From a virus (lineage: Duplodnaviria > Caudoviricetes): DNA of 64,000 bases. Positions within the stretch are counted from its first letter, which is position 1. Every line of letters begins with the position of its first letter. Position numbers and translations under genes: made by a program. Positions 36,927 to 41,720 of this stretch are shown piece after piece. The stretch covers positions 11,886 to 75,885 of IMG/VR virus record IMGVR_UViG_3300023311_001083; one strand, 5' to 3'. The notes beneath the pieces were generated by a model. It was not told the DNA's origin, did not search any database, and saw only the letters and a program-made list of their open reading frames with translations.

Positions 36927-37844
36927 ATGAAAATGAATGAATTATTACTTGAAAGAATTTCAGTATCATCTAATACACAACAGTTGCAGACTGAAATATT
37001 ATCGATTGTTGCTGAAATTAACAATAGAACATATAAACAGTTTAACTTACCTGAAGAAAGTAAACAGTATGGTTTTAAACTTCTTGTATTACTTGATGCA
37101 AAAATTACAAAGTTTTTAACTGATAAAATAAAAGAAATAGCAGATACTCATGTTAAAATTGAATTTTTAGATATGGATAACGAATCTGGATCTGGTGGTT
37201 ATGTATTTGAAGAAAATAAATTAAAATTACATAAAAAGTTATTGACTAATATAGCAAATTGGGCAGCTCATATAAGAACTCAGGCTGCGATGGGTAAAAC
37301 ATCGAACCAACAAATTACAATAAATATGTTAAAAACGGCAATTGCATCATTAGTTAAGATATTTTTACATGAAATAACACATGTAATACAAATAAAATCA
37401 GCTGGTAAACCTTATGAAAAAAGCAAGATTTATAATAAACAGCAAGTTGATGATTATTTGTCTTCATTAAATTTGAAAACGAGAAAACAACAACAAAATT
37501 ATAAAGGTGATAAAGAAGATTTAAATAAGAATAGATTAAATGTTTTCTTAGCTAGAAAAGATTTGAATGATCCTAAAAATGTTGATGTATATTTAGCACA
37601 GCCAGAAGAAATAACTGCTTATGCACAAGAATTAGTTAGTGATTTTGCTTCTAAATTAGTAAATAAATCAAAAACTCAACAGTTAATATCGATAAACAAT
37701 TTTACAAATCAATTAAAAACTAATCAAATACAGCATCCATATTCATTTATGGCAAATAGTGAAGATACAAAATATAAAAATGTATATAGAAGATTTTTAA
37801 AGAGTGTTATGCAAGAATTAGTTGCATTTAAGGAACAACTATAA
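36927..37844 (+). CDS. Putative zincin metallopeptidase with capsid-targeting-like N-terminus
   Basis: MKMNELLLE; FLHEITHVIQ and later YLAQPEEITAYA; TAAATA 5 nt upstream. Confidence 0.55.
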   Translation: MKMNELLLERISVSSNTQQLQTEILSIVAEINNRTYKQFNLPEESKQYGFKLLVLLDAKITKFLTDKIKEIADTHVKIEFLDMDNESGSGGYVFEENKLKLHKKLLTNIANWAAHIRTQAAMGKTSNQQITINMLKTAIASLVKIFLHEITHVIQIKSAGKPYEKSKIYNKQQVDDYLSSLNLKTRKQQQNYKGDKEDLNKNRLNVFLARKDLNDPKNVDVYLAQPEEITAYAQELVSDFASKLVNKSKTQQLISINNFTNQLKTNQIQHPYSFMANSEDTKYKNVYRRFLKSVMQELVAFKEQL

Positions 37845-38289
37845 TTTTATCAAACCCTTCAGCTTCTGTTGGCATTTCTAAATTAGATTTCATTTGATCT
37901 AAAACATGTGTTGGTATAGATTTACCAGGACGATTTAATCTTCTTTTATGTTCTTCTTCATCTGGAGTTGTAAACACGACAGCCACTTTATAGTAATTTA
38001 GAAAATGCTTTAATTTATTAATTCTAGTTTTTGAAGTAATATTAGTTTGATCCCATATCACATCATCTCCAGATGCAACTGCATCAGCCACTTCATCATT
38101 CATCATTTTTGTAGCGTGTGGTATAAATTCAGAAAACACTTCATTATATGTTTTTCCAACTCGTTTAGCATACTCTTCAATGTAATGATCACTGCTAATA
38201 TAACGACAATCATTTGTCCATTGTTGTGATTTAACCCAAGTTGATTTTCCTGAACCTGGTACTCCGATTAAAAAGTAAACAGTACTCAT
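37828..38289 (-). CDS. Polynucleotide-kinase-like P-loop protein (AAA_33)
   Basis: GVPGSGKST, ISSD, IWDQTN. Confidence 0.75.
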   Translation of the reverse strand: MSTVYFLIGVPGSGKSTWVKSQQWTNDCRYISSDHYIEEYAKRVGKTYNEVFSEFIPHATKMMNDEVADAVASGDDVIWDQTNITSKTRINKLKHFLNYYKVAVVFTTPDEEEHKRRLNRPGKSIPTHVLDQMKSNLEMPTEAEGFDKIIVVP

Positions 38290-38483
38290 TGTTTTATTTT
38301 TTCCTTGAAATTTTTAATGGCCACATATCTTTTTAAATATTTTGTAAATGGATGAACATTTTTTATAGGTGCCATACTTGCAAAACTTGATTCTTGAAAT
38401 CTTGAATACCATAATTCGTAATGTTCTGGTTTAATTTCCAAATATTTCATTAAATCTTTTTGTTCTTCGGTAAAAGTATGCAT
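38286..38483 (-). CDS. Hypothetical protein
   Basis: 65-aa ORF, ATGA-coupled. Confidence 0.5.
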   Translation of the reverse strand: MHTFTEEQKDLMKYLEIKPEHYELWYSRFQESSFASMAPIKNVHPFTKYLKRYVAIKNFKEKIKQ

Positions 38484-38535
38484 ATAAATTCCTGTTAAAG
38501 ATACCGGGTAATAATATAATTACCCGGTGTATAAA

Positions 38536-38802
38536 TTATTTAAGTTGTGATGATAAAAATAATTTATCTAACTTATCATTAATATCTTTTAGACTAGCTA
38601 ACGCTTTTTCAGAATGTGATAATGCAGCATTAGCTTGAGCATTTGATGTTGCCAATGATAATTTTGTATTAGATAAATCTGCAGTAATGCTAGACTGAGT
38701 TTTAGATATTGTATCTAGTTGTGTTTGCAATCCTTCGATATCAGAATTTGTAGCACATGCAGTTAACATTAATACAGCAGTAAAAATCATAATTTTCTTC
38801 AT
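38536..38802 (-). CDS. Lpp/OprI-like coiled-coil lipoprotein
   Basis: Lipobox LTAC; heptad Ala/Leu zipper; ends DKLDKLF. Confidence 0.65.
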   Translation of the reverse strand: MKKIMIFTAVLMLTACATNSDIEGLQTQLDTISKTQSSITADLSNTKLSLATSNAQANAALSHSEKALASLKDINDKLDKLFLSSQLK

Positions 38803-39120
38803 TTATTGTTTTCCTATAAGTTAAAGTTTAAAAAATACATCAATAAAGAACTCTTAGAGTTTGGTTTATTTCCATGGCTGCCCAGAGTTACAGCTCTGCT
38901 CTATAGTCCAGCCTTAACATGGTACATATTTGTTCATCAATTTTTAAATATATGCTGTAATCATATATCTAAGATTATTAACATGGTGCATGGTCTATGA
39001 CCAAGAATTATAATAAACTTCCGATCTATTATAATTATGTTAACACCACAAATATGTGTGAGTTCTTTAGTGATAGATTTATTTATCATTCAATAAAATT
39101 ATGATTAAGAATTATATGAG

Positions 39121-39720
39121 GGGGCTTACGCCGCCCTTCCATTTCATGTTCATTTCAATTTCGCTTCGCTCAATTTCATAAACATTCATGGATATTATTT
39201 TCAATTATAATGGTTAATAATTATGGATCCCATTCACTAGATTGTAAGCCATTATTACCCAGTTGCCCAGGCAAAAAAATAGTATATTCACTGAGTCGGC
39301 TGGTTAGGCATACCATTAGCGTTAACGCATTACAGAGGCGGTCATCCGGTACCTCGAGCGCAGTTATTATTATGACGGTGGCTTGTAAACATACGCTAAC
39401 ATGCTTACAAACGTGTAGGTTCTCCCTACTCTTTTAGCCTCGGTTTTATTATTGTAATAAGTAAATCAAATCGGTTTGGTGCGGGCATATCCGATCAACG
39501 TCCTGTAAAGGATAGTGATTTACATCTCTGCTGCTACGTCAGAAATTCACTTCATTGTGACCCTAGAATGGTCCAACTTTAAGTCCACCAATTACAGTCG
39601 CCGGTGGGAGCTTTATATTAGCAGTTATGTGCCTGAGTTAAGTTATTCATAATGTGCCTGAGTTTGTTATTGAGATAATACTTTCGTATTAACAGAGTGC
39701 CTGAGTTTGTTATTGTAATA
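39121..39720 (-). ncRNA. Candidate large structured ncRNA (family not recognised)
   Basis: No credible ORF, own promoter, GC-rich (32/60 in 39301-39360), many hairpins, GNRA loops and G-U pairs favouring the minus strand. Confidence 0.5.
39629..39715. repeat. Three direct repeats GTGCCTGAGTT(T/A)...
   Basis: Copies at 39629, 39654, 39697; copies 2 and 3 identical over 19 nt. Confidence 0.85.
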
Positions 39721-39726
39721 GTGTGT

Positions 39727-39755
39727 ATTGTATATTAAAATTACTATATTGTCAA
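39727..39755 (-). promoter_or_regulatory. sigma70-type promoter firing into the ncRNA candidate
   Basis: TTGACA-17 nt-TACAAT; cspA terminator hairpin lies just upstream (~39766-39797). Confidence 0.7.
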
Positions 39756-39805
39756 CACTTTTTTTGAAAAAACGCAGTATTTTTAATACTGCGTTTGAAT
39801 GAAAT

Positions 39806-40012
39806 TTATAAAGTCTCTATATTAGATGCTTGTAAACCTTTTTGACCTTGTGTTAAATCATATCTTACTGGTTGGTTTTCCGTTAATGTTCTAAAACCAC
39901 CATTTGATTGAATAGCAGTGAAATGTGCAAATACATCGTCACCACCATTATCTGGAGTAATAAAACCAAAACCTTTTTCATTTGAAAACCACTTAATTTT
40001 TCCTGTTGCCAT
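39806..40012 (-). CDS. cspA: Cold-shock protein
   Basis: [23 protein letters not shown]. Confidence 0.95.
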
Positions 40013-40042
40013 TACTTAATATTTCCTATTGTTAAAAATTAT

Positions 40043-40076
40043 ATTATACTATCTATTGACAACCTTGTCAATAGAT
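40043..40076 (-). promoter_or_regulatory. cspA promoter overlapped by a 10-bp inverted repeat
   Basis: TTGACA-17-TATAAT; ATCTATTGAC-AACCTT-GTCAATAGAT. Confidence 0.7.
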
Positions 40077-40130
40077 TAGCGAAGATATTTATCTATAAAA
40101 ATACTAAATATAATAAAACTAGGAGATATT

Positions 40131-40283
40131 ATGTTTACTACTATGAATTTTATAAAAACAATTGGTTTTATAATAGCAACAATATTATCTGCTGGTTTGT
40201 TTATAACAATATTAATAATGATAATAGTGACAATTTTAATATTAGTCACTGGTATAATATATTTAAAACGAGTAAAATCATGA
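40131..40283 (+). CDS. 50-aa hydrophobic membrane peptide (not in ORF track)
   Basis: TAAATA, AGGAG RBS, ATGA overlap with next gene. Confidence 0.55.
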   Translation: MFTTMNFIKTIGFIIATILSAGLFITILIMIIVTILILVTGIIYLKRVKS

Positions 40284-40533: not shown

Positions 40534-40911
40534 ATGAGAATAAAAGAACTATTAGAAGAAATAACCCCCTCGAATTTATTAGAAATTGAACGTTTTGCAA
40601 ACGGTTTATGGCAAAAATTAGGCATTGATGTTGAATTTTCATCACATTTTTTAACACAAGCTAATCATGAACGTAATGGCGAACCAGTAACTAAAAACGA
40701 ATTAATAAGTATGTTTAAAAAACAATATAAATATAATGGAAAAGACATTTCCAAATTAGGCAATATTGAAGCAGTAATGAAAGATTTATTGACAGATATT
40801 AATTTACCATTTGTTATTAGAGATACTGATCATGGTAAGACATTATTTGCAAAAACAGTGATGAGAAAGAAAGATTTCTTCTCACCTGACGAAATGTTTA
40901 AAGTTAATTAA
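40534..40911 (+). CDS. Hypothetical with capsid-targeting-like N-terminus
   Basis: MRIKELLEE. Confidence 0.55.
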   Translation: MRIKELLEEITPSNLLEIERFANGLWQKLGIDVEFSSHFLTQANHERNGEPVTKNELISMFKKQYKYNGKDISKLGNIEAVMKDLLTDINLPFVIRDTDHGKTLFAKTVMRKKDFFSPDEMFKVN

Positions 40912-40959
40912 TTGCCTTAAGGCTGTACGAAGAACAAAGAAATGGGAGCGGATCATTAA

Positions 40960-41253
40960 ATGAGAGCACGCGAATTTATCAATGAAGATTGGCAAAAAGT
41001 AAACAAAAAAGATAAAACTGATGGGATGAGTAAGAAAGCTGTAAATACTTACCGTAAAGAACATCCTGGAAGTAAGCTAAAAACTGCTGTTACAAAAAAA
41101 CCGAGTGAATTAAAAAAAGGTAGTAAAGACGCTAATAGACGCAAAAGTTTCTGTGCAAGATCAAATGGCCAGAAGAAAATGCATAATATTGACTGTTCAA
41201 AAACACCAGATAAACCAATCTGTAAAGCACGTAGCCGATGGAACTGTGAATGA
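40960..41253 (+). CDS. Basic Cys-containing phage protein with capsid-targeting-like N-terminus
   Basis: MRAREFINE; RRKSFCARS...WNC. Confidence 0.6.
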   Translation: MRAREFINEDWQKVNKKDKTDGMSKKAVNTYRKEHPGSKLKTAVTKKPSELKKGSKDANRRKSFCARSNGQKKMHNIDCSKTPDKPICKARSRWNCE

Positions 41254-41720
41254 AAGTTAAAGAAATTTTAGAAGTAACTATGAATAGTAAAACAGGCGCT
41301 GGTGCTGTAAGCAATAATGATGAAGTAGATTACTTTGGTATTCGTGTAAAAATGAAACCATCAACATTTTTAAAGTTAGCAGAAGAAATGCCAATAGATT
41401 CAGAAGTAAAACAACGAATTTTAAAATTAGCACAGTATATAAAAGATGGCGGGGAAATTGGTCAACCATTTTTTGGTATACATATTCCAGAAAAATGGAA
41501 TTCTGGAGACTTTACAGAATCTGCTGAAATTACAAATCATGAAGGACGCCATCGCATGGAAGCAATTATATTAGCGGAAGGTGATAACCCAGTTGAAGTG
41601 CATTTATTTCCTCAATATTATAGAAATAGACATATAACATCTGAATGGATTAAACGACTTAATAAAAGTATTATTAGCGAGACTGGCCAATTGATTTCTG
41701 GCCCATTGTTTACAATTTAA
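41250..41720 (+). CDS. ParB/Srx-like domain protein with capsid-targeting-like N-terminus
   Basis: MKVKEILE; ITNHEGRHRMEA. Confidence 0.55.
   Translation: MKVKEILEVTMNSKTGAGAVSNNDEVDYFGIRVKMKPSTFLKLAEEMPIDSEVKQRILKLAQYIKDGGEIGQPFFGIHIPEKWNSGDFTESAEITNHEGRHRMEAIILAEGDNPVEVHLFPQYYRNRHITSEWIKRLNKSIISETGQLISGPLFTI

What the first reader, a model, noticed from the sequence alone, without database searches (positions are those of the whole stretch)
39121..39755. ~600-nt ORF-free structured RNA candidate with its own early promoter
Seen: TTGACA-17-TACAAT (39755-39727), insulated by the cspA terminator, fires into a GC-rich region with no credible ORF. Minus-strand hairpins: UAAUAC-GAAA-GUAUUA (39676-91), CCACCGG/UUGGUGG with two G-U pairs (39585-607), GUAGG-GAGAA-CCUAC (39415-29), GAGG..CGG-AUGA-CCG-CCUC (39335-55), GGC-GUAA-GCC (39123-32). 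GNRA loops and G-U pairs work on the minus strand, which argues for RNA rather than DNA structure. I do not recognise it as tmRNA, RNase P, 6S or a group I/II intron. It may be an undescribed large phage ncRNA or an origin-priming transcript, and it lies next to cspA, an RNA chaperone.
Basis: partly seen in the sequence, partly recalled or inferred. Interest (0 to 1): 0.78.

Follow-up and report, generated by a model that had tools for sequence, protein, structure and literature searches.

The report
Twin-box phage RNA, extended Polynucleobacter-1
The gene-free stretch behind cspA in this uncultured freshwater giant phage encodes a real, multiply knotted non-coding RNA of about 520 bases with its own promoter; only its first third is catalogued (the orphan Rfam motif Polynucleobacter-1), the rest carries one short word twice, and its job is still unknown.

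Summary
Window 39112-39640 (minus strand) is a structured RNA gene, not a decayed CDS.

- **Known part:** 39459-39612 matches Rfam RF01718 (Polynucleobacter-1) at 84.4 bits against a cut-off of 37, over the full model.
- **Uncatalogued part:** homology in more than 120 IMG/VR phage loci runs about 350 nt further 3'. Rfam has no model for this part.
- **Structure:** a curated fold of 92 pairs with three pseudoknots forms standard pairs in 93% of cells across 45 diverse homologues. 69 pairs show compensatory changes; 0 of 500 shuffles reach the observed values.
- **Twin boxes:** two single-stranded boxes, CUC+7 nt and UCU+7 nt about 54 nt apart, are identical within each genome in 76 of 78 RNAs, with 17 variants across genomes. 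The window has a unique word, AGUGAAU.
- **Window context:** most homologues follow a small GIY-YIG nuclease gene in T4-like phages. Here the RNA follows the cspA terminator and has its own near-consensus sigma-70 promoter. No GIY-YIG gene lies in the 76-kb record, which argues that the nuclease is a neighbour and not a partner.
- **Cellular copies:** full-length copies occur in a few small Burkholderiales genomes beside an integrase. One of them lies near a Zorya defence system.

The scan has already described this family on other DNA.

The parts
39806..40012 (-). cspA-like cold-shock gene (context only; adjacency unique to this window)
   Evidence: PF00313 CSD at 2.9e-26. tblastn finds no CSD gene in the other RNA loci.
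39767..39794 (-). cspA intrinsic terminator: 10-bp stem, AAA loop, U run
   Evidence: Read directly from the sequence. Not listed by the consensus scan.
39727..39755 (-). sigma-70-type promoter TTGACA-17-TACAAT; predicted start near 39720
   Evidence: 11 of 12 matches. The start site is inferred, not shown.
39627..39720 (-). Leader with three copies of AACUCAGGCAC(A/U) at 39695-39707, 39652-39664 and 39627-39639, plus the GAAA hairpin at 39676-39691. The last copy overlies the conserved AGGCA 5' boundary of the family.
   Evidence: Repeat family D2. AGGC is conserved at the 5' edge of alignment A2.
39459..39612 (-). 5' domain, the Rfam Polynucleobacter-1 motif. Helices: P2 39601-39607/39585-39591; P3; P4 39540-39545/39525-39530; P5 39516-39523/39461-39468; P6 39509-39512/39501-39504; P7 39491-39496/39469-39474.
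   Evidence: cmscan 84.4 bits, E = 1.8e-16, model positions 1-141. Helices 3-10 covary.
39531..39624 (-). Pseudoknot PK0: CUGCUA 39619-39624 pairs with UAGCAG 39531-39536 in the P4 loop
   Evidence: Pairing read from the sequence. Family helices 1-2 have 4 of 5 pairs with double changes.
39316..39429 (-). Uncatalogued knotted core. P8 39415-39429; P9 39381-39412; PK1 UUAGCG 39394-39399 with CGCUAA 39316-39321; PK2 GUCAU 39372-39376 with AUGAC 39341-39345; P10 39358-39361/39325-39328; P11 39351-39355/39335-39339.
   Evidence: All window pairs are standard. Helices 11-16 covary and PK1 has 6 of 6 pairs with double changes.
39281..39314 (-). Box R1, CUC 39293-39295 plus AGUGAAU 39286-39292, displayed in a loop closed by GGUAU 39310-39314 / AUACU 39281-39285
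   Evidence: The closing stem is more stable with a sequence's own partner than with foreign partners (-4.88 vs -3.65 kcal/mol, p = 2.6e-7).
39255..39274 (-). Hairpin P12 between the two boxes
   Evidence: Helix 17. The window register was read by hand.
39232..39241 (-). Box R2, UCU 39239-39241 plus AGUGAAU 39232-39238, 54 nt after R1
   Evidence: Identity covariation in the family: same = 0.99, MIp 0.7-0.87.
39138..39192 (-). P13 rod ending in the GAGCGAAGCGA tip, with repeated GA internal loops
   Evidence: MFE fold. The family stem flanking GAGCGAAAGCGAA is helices 18-19.
39119..39137 (-). Terminal hairpin P14 (GGC-GUAA-GCC tip) and probable 3' end; no U run follows
   Evidence: Family helices 20-21 have 7 of 8 pairs with double changes. 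The 3' end is inferred.

Best explanation
Window about 39115-39635 (minus strand) is an autonomous gene for a highly structured non-coding RNA of about 520 nt. The primary transcript, from about 39720, would be about 600 nt.

It is a divergent, full-length member of a widespread freshwater-phage RNA family. The 5' third of that family is the orphan Rfam motif Polynucleobacter-1. The 3' two-thirds, a doubly knotted core followed by two identical boxes, a rod and a terminal hairpin, are uncatalogued.

**Shown:** homology, the fold, the strand, the promoter-like site, the identity of the two boxes, and the lack of coding signal.

**Inferred:**
- Host RNA polymerase transcribes it early from the sigma-70-type promoter.
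- The RNA acts in trans as a rigid scaffold that presents two single-stranded copies of one 10-nt word (YCUY + AGUGAAU here) to a sequence-specific reader encoded elsewhere or supplied by the host.
Because its specificity differs between phages, both boxes change together.
- Small nucleases (GIY-YIG, PDDEXK) and integrases sit beside the gene in other genomes most likely because a conserved RNA gene is a favoured landing site for such selfish genes, as tRNA genes are. They are probably not partners of the RNA.
For: **Known motif and wider homology.** RF01718 matches at 84.4 bits against a cut-off of 37. An nhmmer profile finds 123 loci. Of these, 79 span profile positions 3-458, which reach window 39112.

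**Fold.**
- 92 pairs form standard pairs in 93.3% of cells, against 77% in shuffles and 38-44% with slid partners.
- 69 pairs have double changes; 650 compensatory cells against 181±13 in shuffles; 0 of 500 shuffles reach the observed values.
- 44 of the 57 pairs outside the Rfam part have double changes.
- After fixing registers by hand, the window forms all core helices.
- A natural strain variant changes both partners of the P3 pair 39576/39555, from U-A to C-G.

**Strand.** z = -2.29 for the minus strand and -0.21 for the plus strand.

**Promoter.** 11 of 12 matches, directly after the cspA terminator.

**No coding signal**.

**Boxes.**
- 76 of 78 RNAs have an identical 7-mer in both boxes, with 17 variants.
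- No complementary partner exists inside the RNA: own score 5.01 against control 5.19.
- R1 sits in a loop closed by a covarying stem.

**Independence from any neighbour.**
- The window record has no PF19835 hit.
- Eight loci carry PDDEXK_15 in place of the GIY-YIG gene.
- The bacterial copies have an integrase and a DUF6641 gene as neighbours instead.
- No neighbour protein is shared between these contexts.
Against: - No transcript data exist, so the start, the end, any processing and the timing of expression are all inferred.
- No reader of the boxes was found. A protein or nucleic-acid reader is therefore a deduction from identity covariation alone.
- The window record is only about 22% of its genome, so a GIY-YIG gene could lie in the missing part.
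- The homologues were collected with two conserved patterns, so divergent relatives are under-sampled.
- Many of the sequences are related, which inflates the shuffle statistics. The slid-partner control does not have this weakness.
Confidence: 0.55

Rival explanations
1. Nuclease-RNA system: the RNA is the guide or scaffold of the small GIY-YIG nuclease encoded directly upstream in most homologues, forming an RNase-P-like or OMEGA-like ribonucleoprotein.
For: - 97 loci have a 144-aa SegE-type GIY-YIG gene (PF19835, 1.9e-36) ending a median of 9 nt before the RNA on the same strand.
- The protein lacks a separate DNA-binding domain.
- In 8 loci a PDDEXK_15 nuclease gene sits in the same place.
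Against: - The adjacency sits inside one conserved T4-like synteny (gp47-gp46-GIY-RNA-baseplate hub), so it counts as roughly one evolutionary observation.
- The window has no PF19835 match in 75.9 kb and the RNA has its own promoter.
- L202, L146 and the bacterial copies also lack the GIY-YIG gene.
- Replacement by an unrelated nuclease fold fits a homing-endonuclease hot spot better than a specific partner.
Confidence: 0.08
2. Processed precursor: the two boxes are cleavage or recognition sites of one sequence-specific endoribonuclease. Cutting releases the roughly 55-nt P12 hairpin with box-derived tails, as with ToxI or crRNA units, and this fragment acts as decoy or inhibitor in phage-host conflict.
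For: - The boxes are identical within a genome but differ between genomes.
- Their spacing is a constant 48-59 nt around a conserved hairpin.
- They are single-stranded.
- A cellular copy lies in an integrase island about 1.5 kb from a complete type I Zorya system.
Against: - Only two partial repeats are present, not an array.
- The intervening hairpin is conserved rather than variable.
- The large knotted 5' part has no role in this model.
- There is no RNA data and no candidate nuclease.
- The Zorya neighbourhood is a single case.
Confidence: 0.15
3. Replication-origin element or origin-priming transcript.
For: - A strong promoter fires into a non-coding region.
- Two direct repeats could be protein-binding sites.
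- T4 origins use promoter-driven R-loops (general knowledge).
Against: - Conservation is RNA-type: G-U pairs, compensatory changes and three pseudoknots.
- Only two short repeats are present and there is no AT-rich unwinding element inside the conserved part.
- In T4-like homologues the element has no promoter of its own visible in the 9-nt gap behind the GIY-YIG gene.
- GC skew shows nothing specific at the site.
Confidence: 0.04
4. Cis-acting 3'-UTR element: a stabiliser, terminator or exonuclease block for the upstream operon.
For: In most phages it directly follows the last gene of the gp47-gp46-GIY operon, and a hairpin ends it.
Against: - In the window it is insulated from cspA by a terminator and has its own promoter.
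- 500 nt with three pseudoknots and twin boxes is far more than such a role needs.
- In the bacterial copies the upstream neighbour (DUF6641) is on the opposite strand, so no co-directional gene precedes the RNA.
Confidence: 0.05
5. Decayed or recoded protein-coding gene.
For: An antisense ORF of about 66-75 aa is open in 34 loci, including the window at 39210-39437.
Against: - Open frames are no longer than in shuffled sequence.
- Variability has no period of 3.
- The ORF is open in a minority of loci only.
- The covariation is of base-pair type.
Confidence: 0.01

Closest known systems
Polynucleobacter-1 RNA motif (Rfam RF01718; Weinberg et al. 2010, Genome Biol 11:R31, PMC2864571)
   Same: Window 39459-39612 matches the whole 141-position model at 84.4 bits. 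The habitat is freshwater or pond. The motif is an orphan with unknown function and was suspected of being phage-linked, lying downstream of GOS11034 genes with a possible cyanophage P-SSM2 homologue.
   Different: - The published motif is 141 nt. Here it is only the 5' third of a 460-530-nt RNA with two more pseudoknots, twin boxes, a rod and a terminal hairpin.
- The authors found it in no purified phage. Here it lies in more than 120 viral contigs.
- About 25 loci have the 3' core with another 5' domain that RF01718 does not detect.
- In the window the upstream gene is cspA.
Large ornate phage-associated RNAs GOLLD and ROOL (Rfam; Kretsch et al. 2025, PMC12286853)
   Same: These are also large (over 400 nt), multi-pseudoknotted RNAs of unknown function encoded by phages or prophages. 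The analogy suggests a scaffold or oligomer role.
   Different: There is no sequence or structure match (cmscan to E = 10). No tRNA genes lie nearby. GOLLD and ROOL are not described as carrying twin identical boxes. Oligomerisation was not tested here.
Type III antitoxin RNAs (ToxI) and CRISPR repeat units
   Same: Short sequences are repeated in one transcript, are identical within a genome and vary between genomes, presumably read by one sequence-specific RNA-binding nuclease. The resemblance comes from general knowledge.
   Different: Only two repeats of about 10-13 nt are present, embedded in a large folded RNA. The intervening segment is conserved. No toxN- or cas-type gene is linked.
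tRNA/tmRNA genes as targets of Seg-type homing endonucleases and integrases (e.g. T4 segB in the tRNA cluster; general knowledge)
   Same: A conserved structured-RNA gene is flanked by free-standing GIY-YIG or PDDEXK nuclease genes in phages and by a tyrosine integrase in bacteria.
   Different: It is not a tRNA or tmRNA (ARAGORN found none). No cleavage or att site was mapped.

Membership tests
Rfam RF01718 Polynucleobacter-1 | Covariance-model score at or above the curated gathering score (37 bits) | tested here: met
   84.4 bits, E = 1.8e-16, on the minus strand.
Rfam RF01718 Polynucleobacter-1 | Full model covered, including the 3' half that is 'not always detected' | tested here: met
   Model positions 1-141 of 141, not truncated.
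Rfam RF01718 Polynucleobacter-1 | The model's helices are formed in this copy | tested here: met
   The cmscan alignment shows no non-canonical pair marks. P2-P7 were paired by hand.
Rfam RF01718 Polynucleobacter-1 | Usual context downstream of a GOS11034-type gene, which here is the small GIY-YIG gene (descriptive, not defining) | tested here: not met
   The upstream gene is cspA. The 75.9-kb record has no PF19835 hit.
Extended 'twin-box' phage RNA (family defined by this scan, unpublished) | Conserved 3' core with pseudoknots PK1 and PK2 around GGUACCGG..ACCGCC | tested here: met
   All PK1, PK2, P9, P10 and P11 pairs are standard in the window. The family covaries.
Extended 'twin-box' phage RNA (family defined by this scan, unpublished) | Two identical 7-nt words behind CUC and UCU, 48-59 nt apart, flanking hairpin P12 | tested here: met
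   AGUGAAU occurs twice with a spacing of 54.
Extended 'twin-box' phage RNA (family defined by this scan, unpublished) | GAGCGAAAGCGAA-tipped stem followed by a terminal hairpin | tested here: met
   GAGCGAAGCGA tip at 39161-39171 within the rod 39138-39192. P14 lies at 39119-39137.
tmRNA / tRNA | tRNA-like acceptor and T arm, tag reading frame | tested here: not met
   ARAGORN finds no gene in the window.
RNase P, 6S, group I/II introns, GOLLD, ROOL, known ribozymes | Match to the Rfam covariance model | tested here: not met
   Apart from RF01718, 38400-40200 gives only chance-level matches up to E = 10.
Replication origin / origin-priming RNA | Iteron array, AT-rich unwinding element, skew switch or replication start | tested here: inconclusive
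   Only two short repeats are present, the conserved part is the most GC-rich stretch locally, and skew shows nothing specific. No functional test was possible.

The most novel reading that the evidence does not exclude
The twin boxes form a programmable specificity module. The large knotted RNA presents two copies of a phage-specific word that is recognised, and perhaps cut, by a sequence-specific host or phage factor. That would make this a new class of RNA decoy or guide in phage-host conflict. It would also explain why copies have moved into bacterial integrase and defence islands.
Probability: 0.15. Interest if true: 0.85.

Novelty: new variant of a known kind. Interest (0 to 1): 0.6.

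Why it matters
Large, intricately folded bacterial and phage RNAs are rare. OLE, GOLLD, ROOL, HEARO and raiA are the main examples, and each has opened new biology.

This work shows that a 16-year-old orphan motif is the head of a triple-knotted RNA of about 500 nt that is common in uncultured freshwater phages.

The window adds a natural experiment. The RNA stands alone, with its own early promoter, in an unrelated giant phage. This separates it from the nuclease gene that accompanies it elsewhere.

Two always-identical, fast-changing boxes point to a sequence-specific reader, which can be sought by pull-down or by swapping boxes.

Tried and rejected
- **Cultured phages.** blastn of the window region and of the near-consensus homologue L109 against 50,697 GenBank phage records found only cspA matches or nothing.
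- **Genome-contig pattern scan.** It was swamped by chance hits in high-GC genomes, and none was a true homologue.
- **RNA runs.** No RNA holder was listed for the window sequence, so expression could not be examined.
- **Contig laying.** It showed that assemblies break inside the RNA where conserved segments are shared with co-occurring phages. It says nothing on transcription.
- **Cis partner of the boxes.** None was found: own score 5.01 against control 5.19.
- **Extra copies of each phage's own box word in its flanking DNA.** No enrichment on either strand: 81 vs 76 expected in sense, 64 vs 59 in antisense.
- **Closing stem around R2, and pairing of post-R1 with pre-R2.** Neither was supported (p = 0.11 and 0.85).
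- **Mini-ORF reading of the boxes** (many contain UAA or UGA). Rejected by eye because the distance from the GUGAC element to R1 is not kept in frame.
- **Hammerhead-like reading of GAGCGAAAGCGAA.** Rejected because the flanking bases are a covarying stem and no Rfam ribozyme matches.
- **Shared neighbour proteins between bacterial and phage contexts.** None was found.
- **Literature.** Searches found no paper on the extended RNA.

Full report
**1. What is in the window**

Between the cspA stop codon (39806) and the next minus-strand gene, an Lpp-like lipoprotein starting at 38802, lie about 1 kb without a credible ORF. GC content rises from about 27% to 40-44% over 39200-39600.

A near-consensus sigma-70 promoter, TTGACA-17-TACAAT at 39755-39727 (11 of 12 matches), follows the cspA terminator directly. 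The terminator stem is 39794-39772 and its U run is 39771-39767.

The minus strand of 39112-39640 folds better than shuffled sequence (z = -2.29). The plus strand does not (z = -0.21).

**2. Part of it is a known family**

cmscan against Rfam 15 gives one match above threshold in the whole 64-kb window. It is RF01718 Polynucleobacter-1 at 39612-39459 (-), 84.4 bits against a gathering score of 37, covering model positions 1-141. A permissive scan of 38400-40200 finds nothing else credible, and ARAGORN finds no tRNA or tmRNA.

Weinberg et al. 2010 described this motif from freshwater and estuary metagenomes and from one Polynucleobacter genome. They noted that it usually lies downstream of GOS11034 genes with a possible cyanophage homologue, and that they saw it in no purified phage (PMC2864571). 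No later paper in the library mentions it.

**3. The RNA is much larger than the catalogued motif**

Two pattern scans of IMG/VR, followed by nhmmer, found 123 loci with homology. Of these, 79 span a 458-position profile that reaches window 39112, about 350 nt beyond the 3' end of the Rfam match.

About 25 further loci match only the 3' half. None of the ten such loci tested is seen by RF01718, whereas all ten full-length loci tested are. The 3' core is therefore the more widespread part.

GenBank phages give no blastn match.

**4. Structure**

I aligned 45 homologues that share less than 80% identity (A2). On this alignment I tested a curated structure of 92 pairs in 21 helices with three pseudoknots.

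| Measure | Observed | Control |
|---|---|---|
| Cells forming standard pairs | 93.3% | 77.3% shuffled; 38-44% with partners slid 1-3 columns |
| Pairs with changes on both sides | 69 of 92 | - |
| Compensatory cells | 650 | 181±13 shuffled |
| Shuffles reaching the observed values | 0 of 500 | - |

- Outside the Rfam part, 44 of 57 pairs show double changes.
- PK1 is a hairpin loop pairing with a strand about 75 nt downstream. All 6 of its pairs have double changes.
- PK2 is paired in 100% of cells.
- An independent mutual-information scan found the same helices.
- In the window all core pairs form. MAFFT misregistered some peripheral helices, which I re-read by hand.
- A co-occurring strain variant changes both partners of the P3 pair 39576/39555, from U-A to C-G.
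- There is no coding signal. The longest open frames equal those of shuffled sequence (median 70 vs 69 aa), and variability has no period of 3.

**5. The twin boxes**

Two segments are identical within each genome in 76 of 78 RNAs: R1 (NNA-CUC-x7) and R2 (NNA-UCU-x7), 48-59 nt apart and flanking the conserved hairpin P12. Across genomes they take 17 different 7-mers. The matching columns covary by identity and not by complementarity (same = 0.99).

The window carries a word seen nowhere else, AGUGAAU, at 39286-39292 and 39232-39238.

- R1 lies in a loop closed by a variable stem that is more stable with its own partner than with foreign partners. In the window this stem is 39310-39314 with 39281-39285.
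- R2 lies between P12 and a small hairpin.
- No complementary partner exists inside the RNA.
- A phage's own word is not enriched in its flanking DNA.

Strict A/G identity argues for a reader that tells A from G. Such a reader would be a protein or a covarying nucleic acid encoded elsewhere.

**6. Context and what it implies**

In 97 loci a 144-aa SegE-type GIY-YIG gene ends a median of 9 nt before the RNA. It sits within a T4-like synteny: SbcD-like gp47, SbcC-like gp46, sometimes a radical SAM gene, then GIY-YIG, the RNA, and a convergent baseplate-hub gene. In eight loci a PDDEXK_15 nuclease gene takes the place of the GIY-YIG gene.

The window is different.

- Its record is 75.9 kb, about 22% complete, and encodes a Lon-like protease, DNA polymerase, ligase and ribonucleotide reductase.
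- It has no PF19835 match.
- The RNA follows a terminator and has its own promoter.
- Its closest relative among the loci, L202, shares two neighbour proteins of the window about 7.6 kb from its RNA. It also lacks the SegE gene and has a T5orf172 gene 1.3 kb downstream instead.

Three of 151 sampled genomes of the order around a Burkholderiales MAG, all of about 1.8-1.9 Mb, carry full-length copies with twin boxes AGCGAAA or GGCGAAA.

- One of them (L354) has a tyrosine integrase downstream and a DUF6641 gene upstream. A second shares the DUF6641 gene and a third shares the integrase.
- In L354 a complete type I Zorya system lies about 1.5 kb away.
- No neighbour protein is common to the phage and bacterial contexts.

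I read the nuclease and integrase genes as selfish elements attracted to a conserved RNA gene, as seen with tRNA genes, and not as partners of the RNA.

**7. Mechanism: shown and inferred**

*Shown:*
- This is a conserved, knotted RNA gene on the minus strand.
- It has a strong promoter-like site.
- It carries two identical single-stranded words.

*Inferred:*
- It is transcribed early by the host polymerase.
- It acts in trans.
- It presents the boxes to a sequence-specific reader.

A variant in which the boxes are cleavage sites that release the P12 hairpin is possible. An origin role, a 3'-UTR role and a coding role are unlikely for the reasons given under the rival explanations.

**8. Novelty**

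The 5' third is a catalogued motif. The full-length architecture is not in Rfam or in the searched literature.

Earlier agents of this scan described the same family as a 'twin-box' or extended Polynucleobacter-1 RNA on at least eight other genomes. I reached the same anatomy independently before reading those notes, and I reuse their name.

This window adds:
- a stand-alone context with its own promoter and no nuclease gene;
- a unique box word;
- a triplicated 5' boundary motif in the leader;
- the bacterial integrase, DUF6641 and Zorya context;
- a compensatory change within natural populations.

Noticed in passing
L354:7730-18947 (bacterial genome G052, contig 4): A cellular full-length copy of the RNA (about L354 9215-9730, minus strand) lies between a 212-aa tyrosine integrase plus a 224-aa orphan ORF on one side and a DUF6641 gene on the other. 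It is about 1.5 kb from a complete type I Zorya system (zorA-D). In another genus, one short contig (L351) shares the DUF6641 neighbour and another (L352) shares the integrase.
   Followed up: partly
L020:3963-4484, L053:9985-10506, L224:8819-9385: In eight T4-like loci a PDDEXK_15 endonuclease gene replaces the SegE-type GIY-YIG gene directly upstream of the RNA. This is a non-orthologous swap of small nucleases at one position.
   Followed up: partly
L162, L178, L125, L217, L150 and about 20 others: About 25 viral loci have the 3' knotted core and the terminal parts but a different 5' domain of about 200 nt. Neither the profile nor RF01718 detects that domain.
   Followed up: partly
window 39627-39720: The leader holds three copies of AACUCAGGCAC(A/U). 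The last copy coincides with the family's conserved AGGCA 5' boundary, and the ACUCAG part also opens box R1. These could be processing or binding sites, or a duplication.
   Followed up: no
window 39545-39563 vs 39232-39250: A third near-copy of the R2 unit (79% identity over 19 nt, including AGUGAAU) lies in the 5' domain after P3. The equivalent segment in other phages (GGGAYGGAA) does not follow their box word.
   Followed up: partly
window 38803-39110: A further stretch of about 310 nt downstream of the RNA is AT-rich and ORF-free. It has weak promoter-like sites and a GGCUG...CAGCC hairpin near 38876-38913. It is not conserved in the homologues.
   Followed up: no
window 37828-38289 and 38536-38802: An AAA_33 polynucleotide-kinase-like gene and an Lpp-like alanine-zipper lipoprotein gene lie just downstream of the RNA. 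Neither is linked to the RNA in other loci.
   Followed up: partly
window 40534-41720 (+), L202, L020:4979-5917: Several small ORFs near the RNA in different phages begin with MK(I/V)xE(I/L), for example MRIKELLEE, MKVKEILE and MKINEIT. From memory, this resembles the capsid-targeting N-termini of T4 internal proteins.
   Followed up: no
window 39316-39359 and 39484-39516: Logan contigs of four pond and virome runs break or fork exactly at the most conserved RNA segments. Their loose ends carry other phages' versions of the RNA with other box words. Many variants therefore co-occur in one sample.
   Followed up: partly
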